A stretch of 64,000 nucleotides of DNA. Origin: Octopus vulgaris. Its lineage: Eukaryota. The stretch spans positions 118,420,001 through 118,484,000 of the forward strand of contig OX597815.1 of the NCBI GenBank assembly GCA_951406725.2, in the 5' to 3' direction. The notes beneath the pieces were generated by a model that ran no database searches, was not told the DNA's origin, and saw only the letters and a list, made by a program, of their open reading frames with translations. The position numbers and the translations under genes were made by a program. Positions 6,932 to 11,691 of the stretch are shown in pieces (within the stretch, counting starts at the first letter, position 1; each line of letters starts with the position of its first letter).

Positions 6932-6986
<55 letters not shown>

Positions 6987-7025
6987 AAAAAAGGTTTGAA
7001 AATGCAATTTAAACGATGTTTATTT

Positions 7026-7066
7026 ACTTAACCGGTTTCACTCTTTGGTAAAAGATTGTCAAAAGT
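7026..7066 (-). ncRNA. minimal type I hammerhead-like ribozyme (U3-A8 variant), left-arm copy
   Basis: Exact reverse complement of 11527-11567. Confidence 0.6.
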
Positions 7067-7096
7067 TACATTTAAGGAAACATTGAATAATATGGG

Positions 7097-7308
7097 TTCA
7101 AAAAAGTTTTTTACATAATTGTCACATTGAATATTATGCATTCAAAAAAGTTTTTTACATAATTGTCACATTGGATATTATGGGTTCAAAAAAGTTTTTT
7201 ACATAATTGTCACATTGAATATTATGCATTCAAAAAAGTTTTTTACATAATTGTCACATTGGATATTATGAATTCAAAAATGTTTTTTTATACATAATTG
7301 TCACATTA
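7097..7308. repeat. 44-bp minisatellite x5 with alternating variants (mirrored at ~11284-11497)
   Basis: TTCAAAAA starts at 7097, 7141, 7185, 7229, 7273; unit ends alternate GAATATTATGCA / GGATATTATG(GG/AA). Confidence 0.9.
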
Positions 7309-8652
7309 TTTGGGAAAATTTGGCAGAAAAGGATAAAACAAATATATTGTTGGGAATTGGTTGCGTTAATTATTGGTTGTCGCAAATTGTCACATTACAT
7401 GTATATATATACAATCTTTGGTATATATATACAGCGTTTTGACAGCAAAAATTAAAATGGATTTTTTGTCCATCTCAGAATATTTTAAGTATGTTTTTAC
7501 TGACCTGTTAGTATTAGCAGAAAGGCTGAACTGAGAGAACAGAAGTAGCCAATGTGGTGTATACTTCCCTTTATGCATGAATGATTTTGGGGTTATCAGG
7601 AGGTTAGTATGCGGGTGTGAATAGATGTGTCCGTGCCTGCTGGTCAGACAGCGTCTGTTTGTCACACACATATATATACACACAAACACACACACACACA
7701 ACAACACACACACACACACACAGAACACACACACCCACACACAACGCACCCACATATATCACATATACACACAGCACACAAATATAACATGTATCTATAT
7801 ATAATATACACAGATATATAACACACATACACACACACACACACAACACACGCACACATACATACATAATATAAATATCACACAAATACACCTAGCATAT
7901 ATATATACACACATACAATACACACATACAGCATGTAAGTAATATACATACAGAATATATGCATGCAATATACATACGCAATACATACATACAATATATA
8001 TATATATAGACAATGCATATACATATATACACATATACATATAAATAGTGTTTACATACACATACATAGATGTACCACATATACACACAACACACATACA
8101 TACAATGCATACACATACACGTACGCATACATATAATATATATATACACACACACACACATAACATACATACACACACAATGCATACATATATATACACG
8201 CAATGCATATACATGTATTCATGCACATATAGCACACCTACAATATACATATATACAGTGCACACATACACACAAATATATACACTTAATTGTACACGTA
8301 CATATACAATACACATACATACAAAATACATATATACAATGCGCATGCAAATAATGTACATGTTTATACACACATAAACATGCAAATAAATATACACACA
8401 CACACATACACACACACACATATATATACACATATATATATATATATACACACATACATACATACATACATGCACATACATATATTTTTTCACACACATA
8501 CACACACACATATATATATAAAAAATTCACCACCCCCCACACACACAAATTACAAACCTATAGCGTACACACTCAAATATATCTCTACATGCCGCACATA
8601 CACACAAACAAAGTACTAACATATACACACATACCATGCATATACACACACA

Positions 8653-8687
<35 letters not shown>

Positions 8688-9053
8688 AAAGATACATATG
8701 TAAATACATACACACGTATACAATGCTCACACACACACACACACACACATACACACACACACACACACACAGTGCACACACACACACACATATATACACA
8801 CGTGCACACACACAAACACATACAACGCGCGCACACACACATATACACACACACACACAGTGCACACACACACACACACATATATCACCTACATATATAT
8901 AATGCATGCGTGTGCATGCCACGTATGTGTGCGGTCAATGCCCGCTAGTGTGTCCTATGCGTGCCGATGCGCGCATGTGCCCGCCCGCACGATATGCTGT
9001 GAGCGTGCGCGCGTCCCTGTGTGCTTGCTCTGGATGTGCTTCCAGGGGGTATG

Positions 9054-9263
9054 TTAGAGTATGTTTAGTTGTGGTCTGTATTTTTGAATAAGATTACTTT
9101 CCTTATTTATTCGTGTTTGGTCTGTGGTGTTGTCCGAGCATTGGTATAGTGGGAAGACTAAGAATTTGGGGGACTTATTGTGTGCACAAAGGTCTAAGTG
9201 TCCACTTAGTGGTATCTGTCTTGTGGAGGGGTCCCTCAGTTGTTGTCGGTGAACTGTCATTCT
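9054..9263 (-). pseudogene. C-terminal fragment of a PLE GIY-YIG endonuclease (left arm plus spacer)
   Basis: RMTVHRQQLRDPSTRQIPLSGHLDLCAH...FLVFPLY...RINKESNLIQKYRPQLN fits the R-x3-H...H...R-x2-KE-x3-I...P-x-LN pattern of PLE endonucleases. Confidence 0.75.
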
Positions 9264-9464
9264 GTTCACCGACAACAACTGAGGGACCCCTCCACAACAC
9301 AGATACCACTAAGTGGACACTTAGACCTTTGTGCACACAATAAGTCCCCCAAATTCTTAGTCTTCCCACTATACCAATGCTCGGACAACACCACAGACCA
9401 AACACGAATAAATAAGGAAAGCAATCTTATTCAAAAATACAGACCACAACTAAACATACTCTAA
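9264..9464 (+). pseudogene. C-terminal fragment of a PLE GIY-YIG endonuclease (right arm)
   Basis: VHRQQLRDP...KESNLIQKYRPQLNIL*; mirror of the left arm with one R/T change. Confidence 0.75.
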
Positions 9465-9699
9465 CATACCCCCTGGAAGCACATCCAGAGCAAGCACACA
9501 GGGACGCGCGCACGCTCACAGCATATCGTGCGGGCGGGCACATGCGCGCATCGGCACGCATAGGACACACTAGCGGGCATTGACCGCACACATACGTGGC
9601 ATGCACACGCATGCATTATATATATGTAGGTGATATATGTGTGTGTGTGTGTGTGCACTGTGTGCGTGTGTGTGTATATGTGTGTGTGCGCGCGTTGTA

Positions 9700-9756
<57 letters not shown>

Positions 9757-9900
9757 GTGCGCGCGTTGTATGTGTTTGTGTGTGTGCACGTGTGTATATA
9801 TGTGTGTGTGTGTGTGCACTGTGTGCGGGTGTGTGTGTATGTGTGTGTGTGTGTGTGTGAGCATTGTATACGTGTGTATGTATTTACATATGTATCTTTT

Positions 9901-9937
<37 letters not shown>

Positions 9938-11526
9938 TGTGTGTGTATATGCATGGTATGTGTGTATATGTTAGTACTTTGTTTGTGTGTATGTGCGGCA
10001 TGTAGAGATATATTTGAGTGTGTACGCTATAGGTTTGTAATTTGTGTGTGTGGGGGGTGGTGAATTTTTTATATATATATGTGTGTGTGTATGTGTGTGA
10101 AAAAATATATGTATGTGCATGTATGTATGTATGTATGTGTGTATATATATATATATATATGTGTATATATATGTGTGTGTGTGTATGTGTGTGTGTGTAT
10201 ATTTATTTGCATGTTTATGTGTGTATAAACATGTACATTATTTGCATGCGCATTGTATATATGTATTTTGTATGTATGTGTATTGTATATGTACGTGTAC
10301 AATTAAGTGTATATATTTGTGTGTATGTGTGCACTGTATATATGTATATTGTAGGTGTGCTATATGTGCATGAATACATGTATATGCATTGCGTGTATAT
10401 ATATGTATGCATTGTGTGTGTATGTATGTTATGTGTGTGTGTGTGTATATATATATTATATGTATGCGTACGTGTATGTGTATGCATTGTATGTATGTGT
10501 GTTGTGTGTATATGTGGTACATCTATGTATGTGTATGTAAACACTATTTATATGTATATGTGTATATATGTATATGCATTGTCTATATATATATATATTG
10601 TATGTATGTATTGCGTATGTATATTGCATGCATATATTCTGTATGTATATTACTTACATGCTGTATGTGTGTATTGTATGTGTGTATATATATATGCTAG
10701 GTGTATTTGTGTGATATTTATATTATGTATGTATGTGTGCGTGTGTTGTGTGTGTGTGTGTGTATGTGTGTTATATATCTGTGTATATTATATATAGATA
10801 CATGTTATATTTGTGTGCTGTGTATATATGTGATATATGTGGGTGCGTTGTGTGTGGGTGTGTGTGTTCTGTGTGTGTGTGTGTGTTGTTGTGTGTGTGT
10901 GTGTTTGTGTGTATATATATGTGTGTGACAAACAGACGCTGTCTGACCAGCAGGCACGGACACATCTATTCACACCCGCATACTAACCTCCTGATAACCC
11001 CAAAATCATTCATGCATAAAGGGGAAGTATACACCACATTGGCTACTTCTGTTCTCTCAGTTCAGCCTTTCTGCTAATACTAACAGGTCAGTAAAAACAT
11101 ACTTAAAATATTCTGAGATGGACAAAAAATCCATTTTAATTTTTGCTGTCAAAACGCTGTATATATATACCAAAGATTGTATATATATACATGTAATGTG
11201 ACAATTTGCGACAACCAATAATTAACGCAACCAATTCCCAATAATATATTTGTTTTATCCTTTTCTGCCAAATTTTCCCAAATAATGTGACAATTATGTA
11301 TAAAAAAACATTTTTGAATTCATAATATCCAATGTGACAATTATGTAAAAAACTTTTTTGAATGCATAATATTCAATGTGACAATTATGTAAAAAACTTT
11401 TTTTGAACCCATAATATCCAATGTGACAATTATGTAAAAAACTTTTTTGAATGCATAATATTCAATGTGACAATTATGTAAAAAACTTTTTTTGAACCCA
11501 TATTATTCAATGTTTCCTTAAATGTA

Positions 11527-11567
11527 ACTTTTGACAATCTTTTACCAAAGAGTGAAACCGGTTAAGT
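11527..11567 (+). ncRNA. minimal type I hammerhead-like ribozyme (U3-A8 variant)
   Basis: ACTT-TTGACAA-[TCTTTT ACCA AAGAGT]-GAAA-CCG-GTT-AAGT: 4-bp stem I, stem II, palindromic stem III AACCGGTT, predicted GUU site at 11563. Confidence 0.6.
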
Positions 11568-11644
11568 AAATAAACATCGTTTAAATTGCATTTTCAAACC
11601 TTTTTTCTTATATAATCCCACTCGTGCGATACCCCACAACTCAA

Positions 11645-11691
<47 letters not shown>

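What the first reader, a model, noticed from the sequence alone, without database searches (positions are those of the whole stretch)
6979..11650. 4.6-kb palindrome that is one fold-back insertion of a Penelope-like element
Seen: two ~2.3-kb arms head-to-head with a 9-nt spacer. The centre encodes the C-terminus of a GIY-YIG nuclease, and the spacer reads in-frame (R-M-T-V-H) only for the left arm. Only the right arm has a 36-nt unpaired tail, and both flanks are (TA)n. Established: PLE insertions often carry an inverted partial copy and a short 3' tail. Inference: here the inverted copy spans the whole truncated insert, consistent with cDNA fold-back synthesis. The product could extrude a cruciform or give a >2-kb dsRNA hairpin, a likely ADAR or small-RNA substrate.
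Basis: partly seen in the sequence, partly recalled or inferred. Interest (0 to 1): 0.8.

Follow-up and report, generated by a model that had tools for sequence, protein, structure and literature searches.

The report
Ordinary head-to-head Penelope retroelement insertion
The 4.6-kb mirror-image sequence is two truncated ends of a young Penelope-like jumping gene lying head to head in a TA repeat, a layout already described for these elements, and its lopsided centre suggests the tail-less half was likely made first and then copied back.

Summary
The palindrome is in the sequence as described. The arms are 6979-9254 and 9264-11614 (2263 of 2270 aligned pairs match; 8 indels), with a 9-nt spacer, a 36-nt tail on the right only and (TA)n on both sides. 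The centre encodes the C-terminal half of a GIY-YIG nuclease, 84% identical to a Neptune-type Penelope-like (PLE) protein. Relatives end at the same tailed and untailed positions. The insert splits one collinear host repeat, which argues against a mis-join, but 0 of 4 public runs showed a contig across the centre. A head-to-head inverted copy next to a truncated copy, a one-sided tail, (TA)n targets, self-priming and siRNA from inverted Penelope copies are all published. A single cDNA primed at the tail and folded back cannot give this. More likely the untailed strand snapped back and the tail came from a second priming. dsRNA, ADAR editing and cruciform extrusion are untested. Verdict: a new member of a known kind, low interest.

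The parts
6528..6735 (+). Left half of a dispersed host repeat (SINE-like; label recalled) that the insertion splits
   Evidence: 85-86% to the two closest other copies; 4 of 6 other left halves have the right half within 2-98 nt; here it lies 4950 nt away, collinear.
6934..6984 (.). (TA)n target run, left
6979..9254 (-). Left arm: 5'-truncated Neptune-type PLE 3' end (nuclease C-terminus, 2.1-kb microsatellite-rich 3' UTR, hammerhead-like motif, AATAAA), ending at the untailed terminus
   Evidence: Matches high-depth family contigs with no difference over 9067-9263 (record 15).
7026..7062 (-). Hammerhead-like motif, left arm (mirror of 11531-11567)
   Evidence: motif scan; comparison with relatives.
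9054..9263 (-). 69 codons plus stop: C-terminal half of the GIY-YIG endonuclease, including the spacer
   Evidence: 62-84% identity to 6 proteins; probability 99.9.
9255..9263 (-). 9-nt spacer: native element sequence (Arg-Met-Thr) belonging to the left, untailed arm
   Evidence: family contigs in all 4 runs run through 9263 and then leave the window's sequence. Their loose ends translate by hand to the residues preceding RMTVH in P0002.
9264..11614 (+). Right arm: same PLE 3' end, 9 nt shorter at its 5' side; carries both arm differences that could be polarised (9298, 9422) and 71 nt of extra repeat sequence
11284..11513 (+). About five copies of a 44-nt AT-rich tandem unit in the 3' UTR (mirror at 7080-7307)
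11531..11567 (+). Hammerhead-like motif (type I layout by eye; core has U3 and A8 in place of C3 and G8), followed by AATAAA
   Evidence: Rfam HH9 only 11.6 bits against a gathering score of 52, E 4.8.
11615..11650 (+). 36-nt AC-rich PLE 'tail', right end only
   Evidence: Same position and ACTTTT-type end in relatives L001, L006 and L016.
11651..11690 (.). (TA)n target run, right
11690..11831 (+). Right half of the split host repeat
   Evidence: 86-91% to the two closest intact copies.

Best explanation
This is a dead, 5'-truncated, head-to-head insertion of a young Neptune-type Penelope-like retrotransposon in a (TA)n run, likely made in one integration event in which the untailed strand folded back on itself and a second priming supplied the tail. 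Shown: element identity, the two natural 3' ends, and the spacer's polarity. Inferred steps: (1) the element's nuclease nicks both strands of (TA)n; (2) reverse transcription from the left target end starts at the inner (untailed) start site and stalls in the nuclease coding region at about 9263-9266; (3) this cDNA snaps back over a 9-10-nt loop, possibly through a 3-nt TTC:GAA pairing, and is extended as a sense strand; (4) a second cDNA, primed from the right target end at the tail start site, is complementary to that strand, anneals to it, and fill-in completes the palindrome. The product has no RT and cannot move by itself. Confidence in identity as a real PLE insertion is about 0.85-0.9; the number given is for this mechanism.
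For: [quoted passage not shown] Two natural ends: of 16 related loci, 7 show the same 3' layout; L007, L009, L012 and one end of L016 stop at the untailed site, L001, L006 and the other end of L016 carry a tail, L002 is unclear. Mirror symmetry stops exactly at the untailed terminus and does not extend into flanks, as expected for an RT-coupled event. Spacer polarity and the native continuation TTC, complementary to GAA at 9251-9253. Independent uniform truncations would fall within 10 nt of each other only 0.4-0.7% of the time. In vitro, a PLE protein nicks and extends both target strands, prefers AT-rich DNA, starts at two adjacent RNA sites that define the tail, and is modelled as a dimer (PMC11167929). 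Single locus: collinear split repeat; only 3 of 27 long (TA)n runs in the window, this one included, abut a right half.
Against: The snap-back pairing is only 3 nt and leaves one extra G (9264) unexplained; such a match arises by chance a few percent of the time (estimate). The 15 arm differences are spread along the whole arm with no sign of a switch point. No contig crossed the centre in 4 runs. One locus cannot separate this model from antisense self-priming with nuclease resolution. No target-site duplication can be read in (TA)n. The in vitro data are from a Poseidon-clade element, not Neptune.
Confidence: 0.5

Rival explanations
1. Self-priming on an antisense template followed by nuclease resolution. 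An antisense strand (RNA, or a cDNA that included the tail) folds at its 3' end and is copied through the tail; the nuclease then cuts the template end at the AT-rich pLTR/tail boundary, so the tail is left on the newly made arm only.
For: Predicts the polarity seen: loop with the untailed arm, tail on the copied arm. Antisense self-priming was proposed for PLE junction palindromes in PMC3846280; the tail is ascribed to nuclease resolution in PMC8557442. Both polarisable differences lie in the right arm (2 of 2).
Against: The later in vitro work maps the tail to two RT start sites rather than to cleavage (PMC11167929). No antisense transcript is shown here; 2 of 2 is not significant.
Confidence: 0.2
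2. Two independently primed cDNAs were joined head to head, or a more symmetric palindrome formed, and the 9-nt asymmetry came from chance or from a later central deletion after hairpin or cruciform cleavage. The spacer then says nothing about which strand was made first.
For: Long near-perfect palindromes with short spacers are fragile (PMC7999016, passages); stabilisation by central asymmetry is recalled. The window's second PLE shows that unequal arms are joined (435-nt arms, 2984 nt between). The junction has no clean microhomology without allowing the extra G.
Against: Coincident truncation has probability 0.4-0.7% unless both cDNAs stop at a shared site. A deletion needs a second event in a young insertion (7 substitutions between arms).
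Confidence: 0.15
3. Assembly artefact: a fold-back chimeric long read from one copy was joined, through the near-identical repeat, to a different tailed copy of the family.
For: 0 of 4 runs have a contig across the centre. The family is young and multi-copy. Arm differences include homopolymer indels typical of long-read consensus error, and 71 nt of extra repeat that could mark two separate copies.
Against: The flanks are the two collinear halves of one host repeat, a context met by 3 of 27 long (TA)n runs, this one included. The layout is the one published for PLEs and recurs, with a long spacer, in the same window. Contigs lose rare hairpin junctions beside repeats of 100-fold higher depth (inference).
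Confidence: 0.1
4. One reading: one cDNA primed at the tail folds back at its 5'-truncation point and copies itself to just short of the tail.
For: Fits elements whose spacer lies with the tailed arm, such as the window's second PLE.
Against: Here the spacer is native sequence in the untailed arm's orientation, so the left arm holds 9 nt that the tailed arm lacks and cannot have been copied from it.
Confidence: 0.04

Closest known systems
Canonical endonuclease-bearing PLE insertion unit: pLTR, adjacent inverted 5'-truncated copy, 30-40-bp one-sided tail (PMC8557442 Fig. 2 legend; Pen2a_Av in PMC3846280)
   Same: Head-to-head inverted copy directly adjacent to a 5'-truncated copy, palindrome at the junction, 36-nt tail at one end, microsatellite target.
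   Different: No further ORF unit follows, so the whole insert is the palindrome. Arms are 2.3 kb rather than about 0.2 kb because this family's 3' UTR is 2.1 kb, against about 110 nt from stop to hammerhead motif in related loci.
Neptune clade PLEs (C-terminal GIY-YIG, CX2-5CxxC linker, CCHH motif; definitions from PMC8557442)
   Same: The closest full-length homologue P0002 (84% over the fragment) has RT, CX4CxxC linker, CxxC in the GIY-YIG core and the two histidines; the window fragment keeps both histidines and the R, E, N residues; (TA)n target.
   Different: No RT or linker remains in the window; Neptune versus Nematis was not separated by phylogeny.
Poseidon from Anolis carolinensis, PAc (PMC11167929)
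   Same: Two adjacent RT start sites bounding an AC-rich tail, AT-rich targets, hammerhead near the 3' end.
   Different: Different clade. The paper leaves later integration steps unvalidated; I saw no treatment of inverted copies in the parts read (parts 1-2 of 4).
Drosophila Penelope copies with long inverted repeats that yield siRNA (PMC3681739)
   Same: A transcribed inverted copy could give dsRNA and siRNA.
   Different: No transcription of this locus is shown.

Membership tests
Endonuclease-bearing Penelope-like element | GIY-YIG endonuclease of PLE type | tested here: met
   Fragment alone: no Pfam hit. 62-84% identity to 6 proteins; 3 of the 4 scanned pass the Pfam GIY-YIG cut-off; profile match 99.9.
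Endonuclease-bearing Penelope-like element | Telomerase-like RT in the same ORF | tested here: inconclusive
   Absent from this truncated insert. Present upstream of the matching region in P0002 (RVT_1 26.1 bits, below the 29.6 cut-off) and P0005 (31.8 bits). The family's own RT was not retrieved.
Endonuclease-bearing Penelope-like element | Adjacent inverted 5'-truncated copy | tested here: met
Endonuclease-bearing Penelope-like element | 30-40-bp tail on one end | tested here: met
   36 nt; same two ends in related loci.
Endonuclease-bearing Penelope-like element | Hammerhead ribozyme motif in the terminal repeat | tested here: inconclusive
   Rfam HH9 11.6 bits, E 4.8; Rfam also missed it in 5 of 5 related loci scanned. 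Position and the GAAACCGGTT half match relatives with a canonical core. The window's core has U3/A8, which keeps the 3-8 pair (by eye; natural occurrence of this variant is recalled).
Endonuclease-bearing Penelope-like element | Target-site duplication | not testable with these tools
   Insertion lies in (TA)n, where duplications cannot be read (also noted in PMC8557442).
Neptune clade | C-terminal nuclease with CX2-5CxxC linker and CCHH motif | tested here: met
   Seen in homologues P0002-P0007. The window fragment ends in the ORF's stop codon, so the nuclease is C-terminal, unlike Naiad. The linker itself is lost from the window.
Neptune clade | RT phylogeny grouping with Neptune rather than Nematis | not tested
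   No named reference sequences were at hand.
MITE or foldback DNA transposon | Fixed terminal inverted repeats of a transposase family, identical at both ends | tested here: not met
   Arms are retroelement 3' ends with a coding remnant at the centre; ends differ by the tail; family contigs continue as native ORF past the centre in all 4 runs.

The most novel reading that the evidence does not exclude
The centre records the order of PLE integration: the cDNA primed at the inner start site snaps back and captures a second cDNA primed at the tail site, so small-spacer palindromes should nearly always have the loop with the untailed arm and long-spacer ones with the tailed arm. If so, spacer polarity across a genome is a direct readout of the still unvalidated second-strand step of PLE retrotransposition, and each such insertion plants a ready-made >2-kb hairpin in a microsatellite.
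Probability: 0.3. Interest if true: 0.5.

Novelty: new member of a known kind. Interest (0 to 1): 0.22.

Why it matters
As a structure it is ordinary for this class of element. Its value is as one clean data point on how PLEs finish integration: the arm with the extra 5' bases is not the arm with the tail, which rules out the simplest one-primer fold-back and can be counted genome-wide. If the locus is transcribed it would form a near-perfect 2.3-kb hairpin, a candidate substrate for Dicer or ADAR, and as DNA it would be a candidate fragile site; neither is shown.

Tried and rejected
No whole genome is held, so family copies, other palindromes and spacer lengths could not be counted. Laying contigs of 4 runs on 8905-9330 gave no contig across the centre and no strand-switch joints; treated as inconclusive because contigs show presence, not absence, and 29 loose ends and 232 pieces were not shown. 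No editing signal can be read from these contigs: both T>C differences in the run guessed as RNA also occur in DNA runs. Rfam on the whole palindrome gave only sub-threshold microRNA matches to the hairpin and microsatellites, rejected as chance. The tail has no significant fold (z -0.9). The prokaryotic genome collection held no relative (25 pattern matches, 0 confirmed). None of 16 metagenome loci has a head-to-head palindrome centred on the nuclease match; short-read contigs would tend to break there. The bacterial promoter scan does not apply to an animal genome. Earlier-findings look-ups by place and by sequence found nothing, nor did two word searches. DNA-level fold-back after insertion was rejected because symmetry ends at the element's natural terminus and does not enter the flanks. 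PMC12602865, bioRxiv 10.64898/2026.07.22.740005 and PMC13282606 (passages only) added nothing on inverted structure.

Full report
Observation. The inverted repeat is in the sequence as described. Aligning 6979-9254 to the reverse complement of 9264-11614 gives 2263 matches, 7 substitutions and 8 indels, the largest being 71 nt of extra repeat sequence in the right arm. The spacer is 9255-9263. The right end has 36 unpaired bases (11615-11650), and (TA)n runs flank both sides. About 1030 of the 2351 bases of the right arm are in dinucleotide runs.

Identity. The minus strand from 9263 reads 69 residues to a stop. Pfam does not recognise this fragment. A search of longer proteins gave 6 hits among 10 candidates, at 62-84% identity. 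[quoted passage not shown] By the clade definitions in PMC8557442 (passages and section 11 read) this is a Neptune-type element; Nematis was not excluded by phylogeny. Each arm is therefore a 5'-truncated 3' end: half a nuclease, a 2.1-kb 3' UTR, a hammerhead-like motif, AATAAA and a T-rich terminus. There is no RT, so the insert is dead.

The ends are natural element ends. Sixteen related loci were fetched from metagenome contigs (79 pattern matches, 16 confirmed). Nine contain GAAACCGG, and 7 of these show the same 3' layout. L007, L009, L012 and one end of L016 stop at the T-rich/TATA site where the window's left arm stops. L001, L006 and the other end of L016 continue into a short tail ending in ACTTTT, like the window's right arm; L002 is unclear. 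The window's hammerhead-like core has U3 and A8 in place of C3 and G8; Rfam scores it far below threshold and found nothing in 5 of 5 relatives scanned, so activity is open.

The centre. Contigs of three runs guessed as DNA and one guessed as RNA were laid on 8905-9330. In all four, family contigs match the left arm through 9263 and then leave the window's sequence. Translated by hand, the loose ends give the residues that precede RMTVH in P0002. So the spacer is native and belongs to the left arm. The left arm has 9 more 5' bases and the right arm has 36 more 3' bases, so neither is a pure copy of the other. A cDNA primed at the tail and folded back would leave the loop with the tailed arm, as in the window's second PLE (435-nt arms, 2984 nt between). 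The native plus-strand letters after 9263 are TTC, which could pair with GAA at 9251-9253; the palindrome has GTTC, one G more. At the two arm differences inside the laid stretch, the left arm has the family letter and the right arm differs.

Real or artefact. No contig crossed the centre (depth 0 at 9280-9330). This is weak evidence, because contigs drop rare forms and the insertion may be polymorphic, but independent confirmation is lacking. In favour of one real locus, the flanks are the two halves of one host repeat in order and orientation. Four of 6 other left halves in the window have their right half within 2-98 nt, and only 3 of 27 long (TA)n runs, this one included, abut a right half. 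Symmetry also ends exactly at the natural untailed terminus. I put artefact at about 0.1.

Mechanism. PMC11167929 (parts 1-2 of 4 read) shows a PLE protein nicking and extending both target strands, preferring AT-rich DNA, and starting at two adjacent RNA sites that bound the tail; later steps are stated to be unvalidated. The simplest account of this locus is inferred from that: one cDNA starts at the inner site from the left target end, stalls in the nuclease region and snaps back; a second starts at the tail site from the right target end and anneals to the snap-back strand (0.5). Antisense self-priming with nuclease resolution, proposed in PMC3846280 (passages and Discussion read) and PMC8557442, predicts the same polarity (0.2). 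Independent joining or later central deletion (0.15) needs a 0.4-0.7% coincidence or a second event.

Comparison with what is known. [quoted passage not shown] PMC3846280 describes palindromes at the inverted junction and reads them as self-priming. PMC3681739 (passages) reports siRNAs matching inverted regions of Penelope copies. PMC7999016 (passages) covers the fragility of long short-spacer palindromes. A word search of this scan's earlier notes returned 21 Penelope palindrome findings in at least 3 genomes, 8 shown, including a 4.2-kb whole-insert palindrome with a one-sided tail; these are unchecked AI notes, cited only as a sign that the layout is common. I did not see the spacer-polarity argument in the papers read from searches. 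Figures and supplements were not seen, and the 2005-2006 PLE reviews cited in those papers were not read, so it may be in print.

Function. The dsRNA, ADAR and cruciform suggestions are plausible from general knowledge but untested. The run guessed as RNA held the native family form only. The source organism is not given; the repeat landscape recalls a cephalopod, a group known for heavy A-to-I editing (both recalled, not tested).

Verdict. Observation confirmed; interpretation partly supported; new member of a known kind; interest 0.22.

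Noticed in passing
window 50604-54566 (minus strand): A second, unrelated PLE in (TA)n with the long-spacer layout: 435-nt inverted arms at 99.3% (50712-51146, 54131-54566), a truncated RT, an asparagine-rich linker like those in rotifer Penelopes (PMC3846280), a stop before the nuclease, and a GIY-YIG domain (Pfam E 1.8e-4) with CxxC before the Glu and CxH after the Asn, as described for the Hydra clade. The spacer lies with the tailed arm here.
   Followed up: partly
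window 50604-50711 (minus strand): The unpaired extension of that second PLE is about 108 nt, three times the usual 30-40-nt tail, and folds into two hairpins (z -4.4 for 50604-50730).
   Followed up: partly
window 9465-11530 and mirror: The 3' UTR between stop and hammerhead-like motif is about 2.1 kb of microsatellite-rich DNA with a 44-nt tandem array, against about 110 nt in related loci. Its first 150 nt are shared by high-depth contigs, while diverged contigs break off just after the stop. Possibly captured host DNA, as in Pen1_Av.
   Followed up: partly
window 6818-6933: A roughly 116-nt AT-rich segment, with no other match in the window, sits between (TG)n and (TA)n inside the same split host repeat; possibly a second small insertion.
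   Followed up: no
window 43581-45454 (minus strand): Another copy of the same host repeat has its halves 1505 nt apart, suggesting its microsatellite linker is a recurrent insertion target.
   Followed up: no
L016 5284-7141: A related element remnant with an untailed end on the left in inverted orientation and a tailed end on the right, the classic layout.
   Followed up: partly
window 12373-16467 (-), 19137-19869 (+), 25907-27354 (+), 47665-48951 (-): Other decayed mobile elements: a LINE-like remnant (by eye; the two frames scanned had no Pfam hit), two RT fragments (RVT_1), a piggyBac-type transposase fragment (PF13843) and a 428-aa RT frame.
   Followed up: no
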